Shown: positions 20,886 to 26,126 of the stretch, piece after piece
How the letters are laid out: every line of letters starts with the position of its first letter
How positions within the stretch are numbered: position 1 is the first letter of the stretch
Assembly (NCBI GenBank): GCA_050733215.1
Contig: JBOHSN010000006.1
Coordinates: forward strand, 4,708-68,707
Direction of reading: 5' to 3'
DNA length: 64,000 nucleotides
Origin: Gemmatimonadales bacterium
GTDB lineage: Bacteria > Gemmatimonadota > Gemmatimonadetes > Gemmatimonadales > GWC2-71-9
Notes under the pieces: generated by a model
Databases searched by the model: none
Seen by the model: the letters and a program-made list of their open reading frames with translations, nothing else
Told to the model about the DNA's origin: nothing
Made by a program: the position numbers and the translations under genes

Positions 20886-21485
20886 TCATGGCCGGAGGTG
20901 CGCCAGCTCACGCCGCAACTCGTTGCGTGCGCGGTGGATGTAGGTCTTGACGGTGCCGAGCGGAAGGCCCAGGATCTCAGCGATCTCCTCGTACGCACGA
21001 CCCTCGACGTGGCGGAGCAGAATGCAGGAGCGATACTCCGAGCGCAGCCTCGCGATCGCCGCCTCGATCTCGCCGCCCAACTCGCGCGCTTCCACTTCGT
21101 CGAGCGGGGACGCCTGGCGGTCGCCGATCTGGAGCGCCGTCGCCTCGATCGCCTCGGGTGTCTCCGCGTGCGGAGATCCCTCGAGCGAGAGCGTATCCAG
21201 CTCCCGCCGGCGGAGATGATCGATCGCGGCGTTGTTCGCGATCTTGAAGATCCAGGACGAGAATTTGTACTCCGGCCGGTACGAGTCGATCGCGTTCAGC
21301 GCCTTGACGAAGGTCTCCTGGGCCAGATCCTCGGCGAGCTCGCGGTCGCGCACCATCCGATAGAGCAGCGAGAAGAGCGGGCGCTCGTAGCGGCGGACGA
21401 GCTCCCGATACGCCACTTCCTCGCCGCCTCGCGCAAGGGCGACGATCTCCTGATCGGTCCGCGCGGCCAGCTCGGGCCTACGCAC
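20886..21485 (-). CDS. ECF-type RNA polymerase sigma-70 factor
   Basis: Region 2 (LAEDLAQETFVKAL...FSSWIFKIANN) and region 4 (YRSCILLRHVEGRAYEEIAEILGLPLGTVKTYIHRAR). Confidence 0.9.
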   Translation of the reverse strand: MRRPELAARTDQEIVALARGGEEVAYRELVRRYERPLFSLLYRMVRDRELAEDLAQETFVKALNAIDSYRPEYKFSSWIFKIANNAAIDHLRRRELDTLSLEGSPHAETPEAIEATALQIGDRQASPLDEVEARELGGEIEAAIARLRSEYRSCILLRHVEGRAYEEIAEILGLPLGTVKTYIHRARNELRRELAHLRP

Positions 21486-21538
21486 TGCGGCTCCCCGCGC
21501 TTGCGGAGCGGTCCGAGCGGGCGGTACATTGAGCGCCT

Positions 21539-22270
21539 ATGTTAGCCTCGGATCAGAAGTTACCTGTTTCCGGAGGGGCGGCGAAGCGCGCCTACGTCCG
21601 GGCGATGTTCGCGGCGATCGCCCCGACGTACGATCGGTTGAATCGGATTCTCAGTCTCCGGCTCGACCTCCGCTGGCGCAGACAGGCGGTCGCGCAGCTT
21701 GGCTGGGAGCGCGCGCCGGAGGGAATCTACCTCGACCTCTGCGCGGGAACGCTGGACTTCGCGGCGGCGCTGGCCGGCCGGCCCGGCTTCCGTGGGCGTG
21801 TCGTCGGCGCCGACTTCGTGCGCCCCATGCTGGAGCTAGGCCGGGCCAAGACGCCACGGCTCGAGCCGGTGACGGCCGATGCGCTGGAACTTCCGTTCGA
21901 GAGCGCAGTCTTTGACGGGGCGATGATCGGCTGGGGGCTGCGTAACCTCGCGGATCTGGATGCCGGGCTCGTCGAGCTGGCCCGGGTGATGAAGCCGGGC
22001 GCCCGGCTCGTCGTCCTCGACATGGCCACGCCGCCGAGGCAGCCGCTGCGTGGGTTGTATCTCCTCTATTTCGAGCGCGTGCTGCCGCTGGTCGGCCGGC
22101 TGATCTCCAAACATGCGAGCGCCTACGAGTGGCTTCCAGAGTCCACCCGGGTGTTCCCGGCGCCGCCCGATCTCGCGCGCCGGATCGAGGCGGCAGGGTT
22201 CGAGGATGTGCGCTACATGCTCCTCATGGGCGGGGTCACGGCGATGCACGTCGGCGTTCGATCGCGTTGA
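21539..22270 (+). CDS. ubiE: Demethylmenaquinone/ubiquinone C-methyltransferase (UbiE/MenG)
   Basis: VRAMFAAIAPTYDRLNRILSL (UbiE N-terminal signature) and the SAM motif LDLCAGT. Confidence 0.85.
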   Translation: MLASDQKLPVSGGAAKRAYVRAMFAAIAPTYDRLNRILSLRLDLRWRRQAVAQLGWERAPEGIYLDLCAGTLDFAAALAGRPGFRGRVVGADFVRPMLELGRAKTPRLEPVTADALELPFESAVFDGAMIGWGLRNLADLDAGLVELARVMKPGARLVVLDMATPPRQPLRGLYLLYFERVLPLVGRLISKHASAYEWLPESTRVFPAPPDLARRIEAAGFEDVRYMLLMGGVTAMHVGVRSR

Positions 22271-22280
22271 ACGTTCGTTG

Positions 22281-22406
22281 AACCACAGAGGACACAGAAA
22301 ACACCGAGAACCGGATTATCCGGCGGTCTCGGGCCGAGATACACGACCCTGAACGCGAGACCACAAACAAGATCGGTTCTCTGTGTTCTCTGTGTCCTCT
22401 GTGGTT
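22281..22406. repeat. 126-nt hairpin element: 33-nt arms (31/33 complementary) built from CACAGAGG-type octamers, with an inner inverted repeat GGTCTCG...CGAGACC
   Basis: Left arm aaccacagaggacacagaaaacaccgagaaccg (22281-22313). Right arm cggttctctgtgttctctgtgtcctctgtggtt (22374-22406). Confidence 0.9.
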
Positions 22407-22438
22407 GATGCAGTTCCTACGCCGGTAGCGGAGCCCAA

Positions 22439-23935
22439 ATGGCGATTGACAGCCTGAGCGAGTTCATCCGCGAGATCGAGAAGATCGGCGAGCTGGTACG
22501 GGTGACGCACCCGGCGAAGGCTCGCCTGGAGATTGCGGAGATTGCCGACCGGTGCATGAAGAGCGCCGGCGGCGGGCCGGCGCTCTTCTTCGAGCACGTG
22601 CTCCTCGACGATGGGCGGCGGAGCGCGTACCCTGTCGCCATCAACCTCTACGGCTCGATGCGGCGCATGTGTCTGGCGCTGGGGGTGAACGCGCTGGATG
22701 AGATCGGCGGGCGCATCAGCGAGCTGCTCGAGCTCAAGGTGCCGGAAGGACTCTTCGGCAAGCTCTCGATGCTCCCGCGTCTGGCCGAAGTCGCCAGGTT
22801 TCCGCCGCGGACCCGGAGCGGCAAGCCGCCGTGCCAGCACACGGTCACGCGGGGGGACAACGTGGATCTCTCCGTTATTCCGTTTCTCACGACCTGGCCC
22901 AAGGACGGCGGACCCTATATCACGCTGCCGATGGTGATCACAACCGATCCTGTGCGCGGCATCCGGAACGTCGGGATGTACCGCGTCCAGGTGCTCGGCC
23001 GGAATACGCTCGCGATGCACTGGCAACGCCACAAGGTGGGCGCGGCGCACTGGCGCGAGATGGCGGCGCGCGGCGAGAAGATGCCGGTGCTCATCGCGCT
23101 CGGCGGTGACCCCGCGAGCATCTACTCCGCCTCGGCGCCGCTCCCACCGACCATCGACGAGTTCATCTTCGCGGGCTTTCTCCGGCGCTCGCCGGTGGAG
23201 CTGGCGAAGGCGGTCACCTGCGACCTGGACGTGCCGGCCGAGGCGGACATCGTCCTCGAGGGATACATCGAGCCGGCCGAGCCGCTCGCGCTCGAGGGGC
23301 CGTTCGGCGACCACACGGGGTTCTACTCGCTCGCGGACTACTACCCCACGGTGCACGTCACGGCCGTCACGATGCGGCGGGATCCGGTGTACCCGGCCAC
23401 GCTGGTGGGCCGCCCGCCGATGGAGGACTACTACCTCGGTCACGCCACCGAGCGGATCTTTCTGCCGCTGCTCCGGCTCACCCTGCCCGAGATCGTTGAT
23501 TACCATATGCCCGCGCCCGGCATCTTCCACAATCTGGTGTTCGTCAGCATCGACAAGCAGTATCCCGGGCAGGCGTGGAAGGTGATGAACGCGCTGTGGG
23601 GCCAGGGGCTGATGTCGCTGGCCAAGGTGATCGTCGTCGTGGACAAGCAGGTGAACGTGCGCGATGCCGACGAGGCGTGGTGGGTGGCGCTCAACAACAT
23701 CGACCCCGAGCGCGATGTCCGCTTTACCATGGGCCCGATGGACGTGCTCGACCACTCGAGCCGGGCCTTCACCTATGGCAGCAAGATGGGGATCGACGCG
23801 ACGCGAAAGTGGAAGGAGGAGGGGTTCGACCGGGAGTGGCCGGAGGTGATCGCGATGGACGAGGCGACCAAGCGGCGCGTAGACGAGATCTGGCCACAGC
23901 TTGGGATCCGGTTGGAGGTGAGAGGTGAGAGGTGA
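22439..23935 (+). CDS. ubiD: UbiD-family (prenyl-FMN-dependent) decarboxylase
   Basis: 498 aa, colinear with UbiD/MqnL-type decarboxylases (...GGPYITLPMVITTDP..., ...FGDHTGFYS...). A ubiX gene is nearby. Confidence 0.9.
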   Translation: MAIDSLSEFIREIEKIGELVRVTHPAKARLEIAEIADRCMKSAGGGPALFFEHVLLDDGRRSAYPVAINLYGSMRRMCLALGVNALDEIGGRISELLELKVPEGLFGKLSMLPRLAEVARFPPRTRSGKPPCQHTVTRGDNVDLSVIPFLTTWPKDGGPYITLPMVITTDPVRGIRNVGMYRVQVLGRNTLAMHWQRHKVGAAHWREMAARGEKMPVLIALGGDPASIYSASAPLPPTIDEFIFAGFLRRSPVELAKAVTCDLDVPAEADIVLEGYIEPAEPLALEGPFGDHTGFYSLADYYPTVHVTAVTMRRDPVYPATLVGRPPMEDYYLGHATERIFLPLLRLTLPEIVDYHMPAPGIFHNLVFVSIDKQYPGQAWKVMNALWGQGLMSLAKVIVVVDKQVNVRDADEAWWVALNNIDPERDVRFTMGPMDVLDHSSRAFTYGSKMGIDATRKWKEEGFDREWPEVIAMDEATKRRVDEIWPQLGIRLEVRGER

Positions 23936-24014
23936 GAGGGAGTACCGAGGCGAGCTCACGAGCCCGACGCCTGCGCCGGAGCCCCCGCTCACGTCTCACC
24001 GCTCACGTCTCACC
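23917..24014. repeat. Inverted heptamer arrays: GGTGAGA x3 (23917-23937) and GCTCACG/TCTCACC x4 (23987-24014)
   Basis: Direct reading. The ubiD stop (TGA 23933) and the only in-frame start of ubiA (GTG 23925) both lie in the left arm. Confidence 0.95.
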
Positions 24015-24902
24015 GCCCGCGAAGGCCAGACGTTTGCCGGCGAGTCCCTCCTCGTCCGCTACGCCAACTTCGTCAAGCTGCCCCATACCCTCTTCGCCCT
24101 GCCGTTCGCGCTGCTCGGCCTGGTGGCGGCCTCGATGGAGGTGCCCGTAACGTGGCGCACCGTGCTCCTGGTGGTTCTCGCGTTCTCGGCGGCGCGCTGG
24201 GTGGCCATGGGCTTCAACCGGATCGCCGACCGGGAGTACGACGCGCGGAACCCGCGCACCCGGAATCGCGAGCTCCCGCGCGGCGCGCTCTCCCTGCCGC
24301 AGGCGTGGGCATCGATCATCCTGGCGGCGGCGCTGTTCGTGCTCGCGGCCGCGCTGCTCAACCGGCTCTGTCTGGCGCTGAGCCCGCTGGCGCTCGCCTG
24401 GGTGATGACCTACAGCTTCGCGAAGCGATTCACCTGGTGGCCGCATCTCTGGTTGGGCCTGAGCCTGGCCATCGCGCCGGTGGGCGGGTGGCTGGCCGTG
24501 ACCGGCGCCTGGAGCGAGCCGTGGTGGCTGCTGGCACCGATCACGGTGGCGGTGGCCACGTGGGTGGCCGGCTTCGACATCTTCTACGCCCTGCCCGACG
24601 AGGCGTTCGACCGGAGCGAGGGACTCCGGAGCGCCGTGGTGCGGCTCGGCGAGAGGCGCGGCATCCTCCTGGCGAAGGTGCTGCACGGGATCACGATCCC
24701 GGCTCTGGGGCTGTTCGGCTGGGCCGCCGGGTTCGGCCGGCTGTACTTCGCCGGCCTCCTCGTCGCGGCGGGCATTCTGATCTACGAGCACCGCCTGGTC
24801 CGGCCTGGTAACCTGACGCGCCTCGATGCGGCGTTCTTCACCATGAACGGTGTGATGAGCGTGACGGTCTTTCTGTTCGCGCTGGGGGATCGGCTGCTGT
24901 GA
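23925..24902 (+). CDS. ubiA: UbiA-family aromatic prenyltransferase (4-hydroxybenzoate polyprenyltransferase-like)
   Basis: Multi-TM protein with NRIADREYDARNPRTRNR (the NxxxDxxxD region). The first about 33 codons are repeat-derived. There is no other ATG/GTG/TTG before the conserved N-terminus (VRYANFVKLPHT). Confidence 0.8.
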   Translation: MRGEREYRGELTSPTPAPEPPLTSHRSRLTAREGQTFAGESLLVRYANFVKLPHTLFALPFALLGLVAASMEVPVTWRTVLLVVLAFSAARWVAMGFNRIADREYDARNPRTRNRELPRGALSLPQAWASIILAAALFVLAAALLNRLCLALSPLALAWVMTYSFAKRFTWWPHLWLGLSLAIAPVGGWLAVTGAWSEPWWLLAPITVAVATWVAGFDIFYALPDEAFDRSEGLRSAVVRLGERRGILLAKVLHGITIPALGLFGWAAGFGRLYFAGLLVAAGILIYEHRLVRPGNLTRLDAAFFTMNGVMSVTVFLFALGDRLL

Positions 24903-25068
24903 GGGAAGAGCGGGCGGCACCGGCCGGAAGCCGACGCCGGGGAACGCGGCCCGCGCGGCCGGCGCGCGATGGTCGGCCGCTTCCGCCCGCTCCCACCCGG
25001 CCCCGACCGCTGCCGCCGGTCCCGACCAAGCATCCGCACCGCTCGCCCACACCGAATCGGAGAGGCCG

Positions 25069-25653
25069 ATGAGCCGGCTCCCGATCGTGCTGGCTATCAC
25101 CGGGGCATCGGGGGCACCGTATGGGGTTCGACTTCTTGACGTGCTTGCCCGGAACAGTGTGCCGGTGTGGCTGATCGTGACCAGCCACGGCGGGCGACTC
25201 CTCAAGGCCGAGTGCGACATCGGCTCCATCGACGACCTCCGCGCCGCGACCGGCGGCGACTGGGCCAGCGTGCGCCAGTTTCCTGACGGCGATCGCGGCG
25301 CGCTCCCGGCGTCAGGCTCGCAACGCACCGCCGGCATGGTCGTATGCCCGTGCTCCATGGGCACCGTCGCGGCCATTGCCGGCGGCACGAGCCGCTCGCT
25401 GGTGGAGCGCGCTGCGGACGTGACGCTCAAGGAGCGCCGCCGACTCGTCCTGGTCCCGCGGGAGACGCCCTTCTCGCTCGTGCATCTCCGGAACCTGGTA
25501 GCCGCCACGGAGGCAGGGGCGGTGGTGCTGCCCGCGGCGCCGGGCTTCTACCATCGCCCCACCGCGGTGGGACAACTGGTGGACTTCGTGGTGCAGCGCG
25601 TGTTCGACCTGTTGGAGCTCGACCTCACGATCGCTCCACGGTGGGAGGGATGA
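25069..25653 (+). CDS. ubiX: Flavin prenyltransferase UbiX
   Basis: IVLAITGASGAPYGVRLL..., CPCSMGTVAAIA and RETPFS motifs. Confidence 0.9.
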   Translation: MSRLPIVLAITGASGAPYGVRLLDVLARNSVPVWLIVTSHGGRLLKAECDIGSIDDLRAATGGDWASVRQFPDGDRGALPASGSQRTAGMVVCPCSMGTVAAIAGGTSRSLVERAADVTLKERRRLVLVPRETPFSLVHLRNLVAATEAGAVVLPAAPGFYHRPTAVGQLVDFVVQRVFDLLELDLTIAPRWEG

Positions 25654-26126
25654 GGCTCGGCATCATCGCGGACACGCACGGATTGCTGCGCCCCGCGGTG
25701 TTCGACGTCTTCGCCGGGGTCGATCACATCCTGCACGGCGGCGACCTCGGCCCGCTCGAGCTGCTCGCCGAGCTCGAGGCGATCGCGCCGGTGACGGTCG
25801 TGTACGGCAACGCCGACGGGCTCGACGTCCGGGCCCGCCTGCCGCAGGTCGCTCGGATTCAGCTCGACGGATTCCGCATCGTCGTGACGCACGGCGACCA
25901 ATTCGGCTCCCCCACGCCCGACAAGCTGAACGCCGCGTTCCCCGACGCGGAGATCCTCGTCTTCGGCCACACCCACCGGCCGCTCCTGACCATCGTGGAT
26001 CAGGTGGTGACCGTCATGAATCCCGGTGGTGCCGGGCACCGGCGCTTTGATCTGCCGCCCTCCGTGGGGATCATGGAGCTGGAGCCCGGCATCCCGCCGC
26101 GGGCCCGGCTGGTGCCGCTGGAGTGA
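25650..26126 (+). CDS. YfcE/MJ0936-type metallophosphoesterase
   Basis: MRLGIIADTHG, GDL, GNAD, THGD and GHTH motifs. The ATG overlaps the ubiX stop (ATGA). Confidence 0.8.
   Translation: MRLGIIADTHGLLRPAVFDVFAGVDHILHGGDLGPLELLAELEAIAPVTVVYGNADGLDVRARLPQVARIQLDGFRIVVTHGDQFGSPTPDKLNAAFPDAEILVFGHTHRPLLTIVDQVVTVMNPGGAGHRRFDLPPSVGIMELEPGIPPRARLVPLE

What the first reader, a model, noticed from the sequence alone, without database searches (positions are those of the whole stretch)
23917..24014. The ubiD stop and the only possible ubiA start both lie inside one GGTGAGA array, and ubiA reads through the whole module
GGTGAGA x3 gives TGA at 23919, 23926 and 23933, and GTG at 23918, 23925 and 23932. 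ubiD ends at TGA 23933. The ubiA frame has no ATG, GTG or TTG between the array and its conserved N-terminus (VRYANFVKLPHT), so GTG 23925 is the only in-frame start. About 33 repeat-derived codons (..PLTSHRSRLTAR..) are therefore translated. Each unit contains GTGA, the classic overlapping stop/start, available in all three frames. Inference: the array can couple two genes translationally whatever their relative frames.
Basis: partly seen in the sequence, partly recalled or inferred. Interest (0 to 1): 0.6.

Follow-up and report, generated by a model that had tools for sequence, protein, structure and literature searches.

The report
Repeat hairpin translated at ubiD–ubiA junction
A hairpin built from 7-base repeats has grown into the spot where two menaquinone-synthesis genes used to overlap by four bases, so the first gene now stops and the second restarts inside the repeats and reads through the rest, a tolerated in-frame insertion and not a purpose-built coupling device.

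Summary
GGTGAGA x3 (23917-23937) holds the ubiD-type (MqnL) stop TGA 23933. It also holds GTG 23925, the only possible start of the UbiA/MqnP-type gene: no table-11 start codon lies in frame before 24078, which is inside the conserved core.

The array is the 5' arm of a 116-nt hairpin (dG -69 kcal/mol). This Gemmatimonadales genome has at least 275 such inverted tandem-repeat hairpins.

Across 142 non-redundant ubiD/ubiA junctions of the order, 99 are plain NTGA overlaps. In 41 the junction is lengthened, mostly by hairpins of about 20 different repeat units. In 31 of those 41 the UbiA frame stays open from a start within -30..+15 nt of the ubiD stop, against 7 of 82 control frames (p = 5e-14). 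ubiA is single-copy and under purifying selection (dN/dS 0.10).

UbiA therefore almost certainly starts in the array and translates about 28 extra codons.

- GTG leaves the array open in two frames, not three.
- Most GTGA-type arrays in this genome have a start just after the hairpin.
- Other units place the ATGA in the loop.

This is a new variant of known kinds (heptamer SSR hairpins, RPE-like in-frame palindromes, MIRU-like coupling).

The parts
22439..23935 (+). ubiD-family decarboxylase gene (menaquinone type, SCO4490/MqnL-like); its last 7 codons EVRGER* are the heptamer array
   Evidence: ORF. TIGR03701 scores 605 bits against a cutoff of 496. dN/dS against G005 is 0.091.
23903..24018 (+). 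whole hairpin module: 5' heptamer arm, 45-nt spacer, 3' inverted arm
   Evidence: RNA fold gives -68.9 kcal/mol, z = -3.85. TRF arrays. It is one of at least 275 paired inverted arrays in the genome.
23914..23918 (+). GGAGG, a Shine-Dalgarno-like motif 6 nt upstream of GTG 23925; base-paired in the predicted stem
   Evidence: Sequence and structure string. That it acts as an SD is inferred.
23917..23937 (+). GGTGAGA x3, the 5' arm array; each unit carries GTGA
23919..23921 (+). TGA in the UbiA frame; closes that frame one codon upstream of the start
23925..23927 (+). GTG, the only start codon available to ubiA; 8 nt upstream of the ubiD stop (11-nt overlap)
   Evidence: The same GTG, at the same distance (-102) from QTF, is present in G005.
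23933..23935 (+). TGA stop of ubiD, in the third heptamer unit
23940..23984 (+). spacer/loop of the hairpin, translated in the UbiA frame. The adjoining 36 nt at 23967-24002 (from the 3' part of the spacer into the first bases of the 3' arm) are identical in G005.
23985..24016 (+). 3' arm, CCGCTCACGTCTCA x2.3 (inverted heptamers), translated as ..PLTSHRSRLT..
23925..24902 (+). UbiA-family prenyltransferase gene (probable MqnP), 325 codons. Codons 1-29 are module-derived, codons 30-34 (TAREG) are the ancestral N-terminus, and the conserved core starts at QTF (24027).
   Evidence: TIGR01475 scores 291 bits against a cutoff of 181. Family profiles begin at residue 44-47. PDB 4OD4 aligns from residue 48. 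Relatives' N-termini are M-[ST]-A-x-A-REGQTF.

Best explanation
The segment is one copy of a fast-turning class of hairpins whose arms are inverted arrays of 6-10-nt tandem repeats. The class is abundant in this Gemmatimonadales genome. This copy occupies the junction of the ubiD-type (MqnL) and ubiA-type (MqnP) genes, which ancestrally overlap by 4 nt (A/GTGA).

In the lineage of this genome and its closest relative, the already heptamer-periodic ubiD tail (GGCGAGCGGTGA) became a clean GGTGAGA array. About 86 nt (loop plus inverted arm) were added behind the GTGA.

Every unit carries TGA, so ubiD must stop within the first three units. The penultimate unit offers an open GTG preceded by GGAGG, so ubiA restarts there. 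The loop and 3' arm are then translated as a roughly 28-residue N-terminal extension of low complexity.

Translation of ubiA most likely depends on ubiD. The terminating ribosome has melted the stem that otherwise buries the SD and the GTG, and it re-initiates 8 nt upstream. This combines the termination-reinitiation and RNA-unfolding models of coupling.

What selection maintains is an open UbiA frame joined to the ubiD stop. It does not maintain the peptide or a dedicated coupling device.

Shown here: the geometry, the hairpin prediction, the unique start, the ancestral overlap, frame maintenance across many independent hairpins, and purifying selection on both genes.

Inferred: actual use of the start, the coupling mechanism, and whether the module grew in place or was inserted.
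For: Unique start:
- No ATG, GTG, TTG, CTG or ATH lies in frame between 23925 and 24078. Family models and PDB 4OD4 place the conserved core from residue 44-48.

Ancestral state:
- 99 of 142 non-redundant junctions across the order are exact NTGA overlaps.
- The nearest module-free relatives read ..GGCGAGCGGTGAC.., with UbiA beginning M-T-(x)-REGQTF.

Lineage-specific module:
- Only G005 (91% UbiA identity) shares it. The UbiA tree puts L003+L004 as sister to the module-free L005+L006 (support 96).
- G005 has 6 units in the 5' arm instead of 3, yet keeps the same GTG at -102 and has no indel in the translated part.

Frame maintenance:
- Of 41 junctions with at least 82 nt between the conserved LGI and QTF, carrying about 20 different units, 31 have a UbiA-frame start within -30..+15 nt of the ubiD stop that is open to QTF. 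The other two frames give 6 and 1. Fisher p = 5e-14.
- 23 of those 41 keep the exact NTGA overlap.
- All 10 exceptions have another start downstream, in the loop or after the module.

Gene is functional:
- One copy in the genome. dN/dS is 0.105 for ubiA and 0.091 for ubiD against G005.

Hairpin:
- -68.9 kcal/mol, with GGAGG and GTG 23925 inside the stem.
- A compensatory change between G000 and G005: 5' GGTGAGA to GGCGAGA, matched by 3' CTCACG to CTCGCC.

Class context:
- At least 275 paired inverted arrays in 3.97 Mb; loops differ in length and sequence.

Coupling background:
- Coupling needs overlaps or very short distances (PMC10666635). The RNA-unfolding and reinitiation models are reviewed in PMC12548453.
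Against: - There is no expression evidence.
- The pooled extensions of the 26 lengthened junctions in the first 97-junction sample show no coding-like composition: GC1/2/3 are 0.75/0.68/0.72, against 0.65/0.38/0.89 in the UbiA core. The peptide itself is therefore not under visible selection.
- Open frames are easy to obtain in C-rich 3' arms, which cannot contain stop codons.
- The junctions are phylogenetically related, so the Fisher test overstates independence.
- An 11-nt overlap with the start inside a -69 kcal/mol stem may re-initiate poorly.
- In relatives the start lies sometimes in the stem and sometimes in the loop, so hairpin gating is not a conserved feature.
Confidence: 0.75

Rival explanations
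1. Dedicated frame-agnostic coupler. GTGA-bearing heptamer arrays are selected because they stop any incoming frame and restart any outgoing frame, and so serve as general translational couplers between genes.
For: - Three units give TGA in all frames and an SD-like GAGGTGA before each GTG.
- At this junction several lineages with GTGA-type units (GGTGAGC, AGTGAGA, CGTGAAA, GGTGAAA) place both the stop and the start in the 5' arm, at offsets -8, -1, +6 and +13.
- Slippage in the 5' array cannot break either ORF (reasoning, and 3 against 6 units).
Against: - GTG is open in only 2 of 3 frames.
- In this genome most GTGA-type arrays between same-strand genes have a canonical start 0-30 nt after the 3' arm, so the hairpin is a spacer there.
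- The class has many unit families without GTGA: GGATAGC 56 copies, GGCGGGAGAG-type 17, and others.
- At the same junction, units without TGA simply keep the ATGA in the loop.
- Relatives L058 and L065 have GTGA-type arrays but start 60-87 nt after the stop.
Confidence: 0.1
2. Untranslated spacer. UbiA starts at a non-canonical codon after the 3' arm, or is not made at all, and the open frame through the module is accidental.
For: - The extension has no coding-like GC3 skew.
- 3' arms made of TCTCACC-type units cannot contain stops on this strand.
- In G020 a CTG sits exactly at the ancestral start position after the module.
Against: - Here the codon at the ancestral start position is CTC, and no near-cognate start (CTG, ATH) lies before 24078. 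No SD-like motif follows the module.
- The frame stays connected to the ubiD stop in 31 of 41 lengthened junctions, against 7 of 82 control frames.
- Junctions that do have a post-module start show in-frame stops inside the module, for example L202, which is open only from -36.
- ubiA is single-copy with dN/dS 0.105.
Confidence: 0.07
3. Regulatory gate or rheostat. The hairpin is kept because it makes MqnP synthesis strictly dependent on MqnL translation. Array copy number (stop-start spacing -8, -1, +6, +13) tunes the ratio of the two enzymes, possibly as a slippage-driven contingency switch.
For: - The SD and the start are sequestered in a -69 kcal/mol stem.
- Copy number differs between the two closest genomes, 3 against 6 units, giving spacings of -8 and +13.
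- Arm pairing is kept by a compensatory change.
- 36 nt (most of it in the loop) are identical between genomes whose synonymous divergence is 0.5-0.6.
- Coupling efficiency is known to fall steeply with distance (PMC10666635).
Against: - Only two genomes carry this module, and the 36-nt identity is of borderline significance.
- Relatives place the start in the stem or in the loop without a pattern.
- The same hairpin class sits at hundreds of unrelated junctions, mostly right after stop codons.
- No population data on copy-number variation could be obtained.
Confidence: 0.1

Closest known systems
Heptameric simple-sequence repeats of Xanthomonas (GGGAATC) and Nostoc (GGGGA(C/T)T), including convergent pairs (Rehm et al. 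2015, PMC4692102)
   Same: Tandem 7-nt units in variable copy number. Frequent pairs in convergent orientation that can form stem-loops. Preference for positions between same-strand ORFs and within 50 bp of, or overlapping, the stop codon. Transcribed.
   Different: - The unit here has no G-tracts, so the G-quadruplex reading does not apply.
- Gemmatimonadales use dozens of unit families of 6-10 nt in one genome.
- This copy is inside coding sequence and carries both a stop and a start.
- Rehm et al. report intragenic copies as rare (7-11%).
Rickettsia palindromic elements (RPE; Ogata et al. 2000, as reviewed in PMC10969869)
   Same: A palindromic element of about 100-150 nt that sits in frame in a housekeeping gene and is translated as an extra peptide segment without destroying the protein.
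   Different: RPEs are copies of defined families with a conserved encoded peptide, and are thought to be mobile. Here the loops are unrelated between copies and the arms are microsatellites. The peptide shows no sign of selection.
Mycobacterial interspersed repetitive units (MIRU; Supply et al. 1997, as summarised in PMC12548453)
   Same: Repeats lodged at start codons inside operons, with a reading frame whose stop and start overlap those of the flanking genes, so that translational coupling is preserved and the insertion is tolerated.
   Different: MIRUs are 40-100-bp direct repeats that carry their own small ORF. Here there is no separate ORF: the repeat is absorbed into the two flanking genes, and it is an inverted-repeat hairpin.
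Translational coupling by termination-reinitiation or RNA unfolding at overlapping gene pairs (Huber et al. 2019 PMC6728339; 2023 PMC10666635; review PMC12548453)
   Same: A same-strand pair with an ancestral 4-nt overlap. The present 11-nt overlap has an SD and a start buried in structure that the upstream ribosome would open.
   Different: The overlap lies inside a repeat array, so spacing changes in 7-nt steps between relatives. Nothing has been measured.

Membership tests
Paired (convergent) heptameric SSR arrays, Rehm et al. 2015 type | Head-to-tail copies of a 7-nt unit, with copy number varying between relatives | tested here: met
   GGTGAGA x3 here against 6 units in G005.
Paired (convergent) heptameric SSR arrays, Rehm et al. 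2015 type | A second array in inverted orientation close by, able to form a stem-loop | tested here: met
   3' arm at 23985-24016. The fold gives -68.9 kcal/mol, z = -3.85.
Paired (convergent) heptameric SSR arrays, Rehm et al. 2015 type | G-rich GGGNATC-type unit able to form a G-quadruplex | tested here: not met
   The unit GGTGAGA has no run of three G.
Paired (convergent) heptameric SSR arrays, Rehm et al. 2015 type | Lies between same-strand ORFs, at or within 50 bp of the upstream stop codon | tested here: met
   The ubiD stop is inside the array. Genome-wide: 108 co-directional, 40 convergent and 7 divergent contexts.
Rickettsia palindromic element-like in-frame insertion | Palindromic element inside an ORF, kept in frame | tested here: met
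   The UbiA frame is open from 23925 through the module. Frames are maintained in 31 of 41 lengthened junctions.
Rickettsia palindromic element-like in-frame insertion | Copies share a conserved sequence and encode a conserved peptide | tested here: not met
   Loops of the 15 GGTGAGA-type copies differ in length (12-72 nt) and in sequence. Only the arm and a short GGAGCCCC motif recur.
Rickettsia palindromic element-like in-frame insertion | The element is actually translated | not testable with these tools
MITE | Terminal inverted repeats around a conserved core, with target-site duplication | tested here: not met
   There is no conserved core. The 5' arm aligns with the pre-existing ubiD tail of relatives and not with an inserted block.
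Intrinsic transcription terminator | GC-rich stem-loop followed by a T-run | tested here: not met
   No terminator-like site in 21400-25800. The 3' arm is followed by CGCCCGCGAAGG.
Known RNA families (Rfam 15) | Score at or above the gathering threshold | tested here: not met
   Only generic hairpin matches to miRNA precursor models, at 20-30 bits against thresholds of 78-168.
Translationally coupled gene pair (termination-reinitiation) | Same-strand genes with an overlap or a very short distance between stop and start | tested here: met
   The start is 8 nt upstream of the stop. 99 of 142 orthologous junctions are NTGA overlaps.
Translationally coupled gene pair (termination-reinitiation) | Downstream translation depends on upstream translation | not testable with these tools
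   This needs reporter assays.
Menaquinone (futalosine-branch) SCO4490/SCO4491-type pair | Decarboxylase matches TIGR03701 above its cutoff | tested here: met
   605.4 bits against 495.9.
Menaquinone (futalosine-branch) SCO4490/SCO4491-type pair | Prenyltransferase matches an MqnP model above its cutoff | tested here: inconclusive
   MqnP_SCO4491 scores 275 bits against a cutoff of 420. The general UbiA-like model TIGR01475 scores 291 against 181. The gene order menG-ubiD-ubiA-ubiX fits the pair.

The most novel reading that the evidence does not exclude
GTGA-bearing heptamer arrays are slippage-tolerant, nearly frame-agnostic stop-restart cassettes. Gain or loss of units in the 5' arm can never break either gene; it only moves the stop-start spacing in 7-nt steps (-8, -1, +6, +13, all seen in relatives). 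A 7-nt slip in the translated 3' arm is rescued in one of its two directions by the neighbouring GTG. The junction would then act as a heritable, reversible rheostat for the MqnP:MqnL ratio, with the hairpin enforcing strict dependence on upstream translation.
Probability: 0.12. Interest if true: 0.7.

Novelty: new variant of a known kind. Interest (0 to 1): 0.45.

Why it matters
The case shows, through a natural experiment on one gene pair, how an abundant class of microsatellite hairpins invades operon junctions. Selection does not remove the hairpin. It keeps the downstream frame open and tied to the upstream stop, so repeat DNA is repeatedly absorbed into protein termini. This has three consequences:

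- Annotation. In these genomes, starts and N-termini next to repeat hairpins should not be trimmed to the conserved core.
- Evidence for coupling. Keeping the ubiD stop and ubiA start together through about 20 independent repeat invasions is strong indirect evidence that coupled translation of the decarboxylase and the prenyltransferase matters.
- A testable system. Spacings of -8, -1, +6 and +13 provide a natural series for how spacing and structure affect reinitiation.

Tried and rejected
- A decayed ATG downstream of the module was rejected. ACG 24030 is the conserved Thr of QTF in all relatives, not a mutated start.
- A UbiD-UbiA fusion was rejected. It had been suggested by 'open frame' values of 736-804 aa. 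The UbiA frame merely stays open across ubiD in these high-GC genomes, and ubiD stops in another frame.
- A mobile MITE-like copy with a conserved core was rejected, because the loops of family members are unrelated.
- An intrinsic terminator or a known RNA family was rejected.
- A test for a coding-like GC3 signature in the extensions was negative: 0.75/0.68/0.72. This test therefore gives no support for translation, and the argument rests on frame maintenance.
- A metagenome scan for the conserved loop 26-mer gave 0 hits. A genus-wide DNA search found the full module only in G005.
- The 16S 3' end could not be confirmed, because no 16S tail is present in the assembly. The GGATCACCTCCTT matches are a conserved SD-like 13-mer on the opposite strand of another locus.
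- Common descent of this module and the G123 module (both encode M-x-G-E-R-E-Y) remains unresolved. The two lie in distant clades whose close relatives carry other units.
- A second candidate in this genome, C8:51121, has GTG codons in its loop, so it is not a forced whole-module read-through.
Full report
**1. Observation**

The window reads ggttGGAGGTGAGAGGTGAGAGGTGAGAGG at 23910-23939. This places GTG at 23918, 23925 and 23932, and TGA at 23919, 23926 and 23933.

The ORF 22439..23935 ends at TGA 23933. The ORF 23925..24902 starts at GTG 23925, one codon after an in-frame TGA at 23919. Counting every table-11 start codon (ATG, GTG, TTG, CTG, ATT, ATC, ATA), none lies in that frame between 23925 and CTG 24078, and 24078 is already inside the conserved FVKLPHT motif.

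The heptamers are not isolated. An inverted array, CCGCTCACGTCTCA x2.3, lies at 23985-24016. The stretch 23903-24018 folds into a single hairpin of -68.9 kcal/mol, with z = -3.85 and 0 of 200 shuffles as stable. Array-like matches number 12 in the window against 0.47 expected.

**2. The genes**

- The upstream protein matches TIGR03701 (menaquinone biosynthesis decarboxylase, SCO4490 type) at 605 bits, above its cutoff of 496.
- The downstream protein matches the UbiA-like model TIGR01475 above its cutoff. It matches MqnP models below theirs.
- A MenG/UbiE methyltransferase precedes the pair and a UbiX flavin prenyltransferase follows it.
- Family profiles begin to align at residue 44-47 of the 325-residue ORF. 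The only solved relative, PDB 4OD4, aligns from residue 48 to its own residue 21. The ORF therefore carries about 27-35 residues more than usual at its N-terminus.
- The genome has one copy of this gene.
- The organism is an uncultured Gemmatimonadales bacterium, judged from the record titles of its relatives.

**3. The ancestral junction**

I collected the ubiD/ubiA junction from relatives at genus, family and order level. I measured J, the number of bases between the conserved LGI near the end of UbiD and the conserved QTF of UbiA.

- In 142 non-redundant junctions, 99 have the ubiA start overlapping the ubiD stop as NTGA.
- In module-free relatives UbiA begins M-[S/T]-A-x-A-R-E-G-Q-T-F, that is, 5-10 codons before QTF.
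- ACG 24030 is the conserved Thr of QTF, not a decayed ATG.
- The closest module-free relatives read ..GGC GAG CGG TGA CC.. (UbiD ..GER*, UbiA GTG ACC ..). This tail is already 7-nt periodic, and the GGTGAGA array of the window aligns with it column for column.
- Relative to them, the window has about 86 extra bases (loop plus 3' arm) behind the GTGA.
- Only G005 (91% UbiA identity) shares the module. On the UbiA tree the two are sisters, and together they are sister to the module-free L005+L006 (support 96).

**4. Is the module translated?**

No expression data could be reached. The argument is therefore comparative.

- Forty-one junctions have J of at least 82. With a few exceptions (one-arm or weakly structured spacers such as L204 and L076), these hold hairpins, built from about 20 different units: GGCGGTC, GGGGAAC, GGGTCAA, GGCGGAC, GGCGGAA, AGTGAGA, CGTGAAA, GGTGAAA, GGTGAGC, CGTGAAC, 8- and 9-mers, and others. 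Close relatives often carry different units. The junction is thus a hotspot with many independent events.
- In 31 of the 41, the UbiA frame has a canonical start within -30..+15 nt of the ubiD stop and stays open to QTF. The same criterion is met in 6 and 1 of 41 for the other two frames (Fisher p = 5e-14).
- Twenty-three keep the exact NTGA overlap.
- Where the unit has no TGA, ubiD reads through the 5' arm and the ATGA sits in the loop. Where the unit carries GTGA, both the stop and the start sit in the 5' arm.
- All ten exceptions have another start further downstream, in the loop or after the module. In some of them the module contains in-frame stops; L202, for example, is open only from -36.
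- The window has no such alternative start.
- G005 keeps the same GTG at -102 and has no indel in the translated part, although its 5' array has six units instead of three.
- ubiA and ubiD are under strong purifying selection between the two genomes: dN/dS 0.105 and 0.091, with dS 0.51-0.57.

I conclude, at about 85%, that UbiA starts at GTG 23925.

A caveat applies. In the 26 lengthened junctions of the first 97-junction sample, the pooled extensions have no coding-like GC3 skew: 0.75/0.68/0.72 against 0.65/0.38/0.89 in the core. Selection therefore acts on openness of the frame and not on the peptide.

**5. How it probably works**

GGAGG (23914-23918) lies 6 nt before GTG 23925, and both are base-paired in the predicted stem. 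A ribosome finishing ubiD at 23933 must have opened the 5' arm. It can then re-initiate 8 nt upstream.

This fits both published models of coupling, RNA unfolding and termination-reinitiation (PMC12548453). It also fits the finding that coupling needs overlaps or very short distances (PMC10666635). This step is inference.

In relatives the start lies sometimes in the stem and sometimes in the loop. Gating by the stem is therefore not a conserved feature.

**6.

- Three units do give TGA in all three frames.
- The GTG of a unit is closed by the TGA two units later. Only the last two GTGs are open, so only two of three outgoing frames can be served. GTG 23918 runs 5 codons; 23925 and 23932 are open.
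- A consequence is that unit gain or loss in the 5' arm cannot break either gene. It only changes the stop-start spacing in 7-nt steps. Offsets of -8, -1, +6 and +13 are all found among relatives with GTGA-type units, and the window (-8, 3 units) and G005 (+13, 6 units) differ in exactly this way.
- This is a real and interesting property. As a function it is not supported, for the reasons below.

I paired TRF arrays over the whole genome and found at least 275 inverted tandem-array hairpins in 3.97 Mb. The leading unit families are GGATAGC (56 copies), GGTGAGC (28), a GGCGGGAGAG type (17) and GGTGAGA (13). Their loops are unrelated in length and sequence.

With flanking frames assigned by GC3, 108 hairpins lie between same-strand genes, 40 between convergent genes and 7 between divergent genes. 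In the same-strand cases:
- the upstream stop is usually 1-12 nt before the 5' arm, or inside it for TGA-bearing units;
- a canonical start usually follows 0-30 nt after the 3' arm;
- the ubiD/ubiA junction is one of the few with no start within 90 nt after the module.

The arrays are thus ordinarily spacers. They become coding sequence where a coupled junction leaves no other option.

**7. Comparison with known systems**

- Closest described class: the heptameric SSRs of Xanthomonas and Nostoc. These include 70-75 convergent pairs per Xanthomonas genome, a preference for same-strand junctions and for the stop codon, and transcription (PMC4692102). The G-quadruplex-forming unit that defines that class is not met here.
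- In-frame survival of a palindrome inside a housekeeping gene works like the Rickettsia palindromic elements (PMC10969869). The conserved element sequence and peptide of RPEs are not met.
- Preservation of stop/start overlap by a repeat lodged at a start codon works like MIRUs (PMC12548453). Those are direct repeats with their own ORF.
- The module is not a terminator and not an Rfam family.
- A literature search for such repeats in Gemmatimonadetes found nothing relevant.
- Earlier notes of this scan describe the same class in Gemmatimonadales, including translated copies. I treated them as leads. I re-derived the class properties in this genome, and the frame-maintenance result at this junction, from sequence.

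**8. Verdict**

The 'universal coupler' inference is corrected to 2 of 3 frames and downgraded to a property. The finding is a new variant of known kinds. Its interest is moderate and lies mainly in the 142-junction natural experiment. That experiment shows that selection keeps the two cistrons joined through repeated invasions by repeat hairpins.

Noticed in passing
window 22281-22406: The menG-ubiD spacer holds another strong hairpin (-85 kcal/mol, z = -7.3). Its arms are CACAGAGRA 9-mers, a unit family with several other copies in the genome. The ubiA-ubiX spacer (24903-25068) is not more structured than shuffles.
   Followed up: partly
window 23967-24002: These 36 bases (mostly loop, running into the first bases of the 3' arm) are identical in G000 and G005, although synonymous divergence of the flanking genes is 0.51-0.57. 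Synonymous divergence of the whole extension is 0.18. With only two genomes this is of borderline significance. It could reflect nucleotide-level constraint or recent conversion.
   Followed up: partly
whole genome G000 (e.g. C104:7921, C13:19443, C27:24319, C8:40366): About 16 of 108 same-strand hairpin modules appear to lie inside one continuous long ORF. The flanks share a frame and no stop lies near the module. These would be repeat hairpins within genes, not at junctions.
   Followed up: no
whole genome G000: Context bias of the 266 modules with usable flanks: 108 co-directional, 40 convergent and 7 divergent. The modules are thus tied to gene 3' ends.
   Followed up: yes
window 23976-23984 and other GGTGAGN modules (e.g. 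C57:1429, C51:16178, C15:29003): A short GGAGCCCC(C/T) motif directly before the 3' arm recurs in many GGTGAGN-type modules of G000 and G005, although the rest of each loop is unrelated.
   Followed up: partly
L152 (G123) and L183 (G312), ubiD/ubiA junction: A distant genus carries a GGTGAGC module whose UbiA extension also begins M-x-G-E-R-E-Y. One relative has only the 5' array (MSSERGYREAQTF) without an inverted arm. L204 has seven GGTGAAC units and no partner arm. One-armed arrays therefore exist at this junction.
   Followed up: partly
G000 C73:8699-8711 and orthologous loci L223-L225: A 13-mer AAGGAGGTGATCC, a perfect complement of the canonical 16S tail, is conserved on the opposite strand in front of a gene in all sampled members of the genus. 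The assembly itself has no 16S 3' end.
   Followed up: partly
L169 (long-read MAG), ubiD/ubiA junction: The ATGA is present, but ubiD is out of frame with it and runs on for about 1 kb. This is probably an indel error in the assembly and not a real fusion.
   Followed up: no
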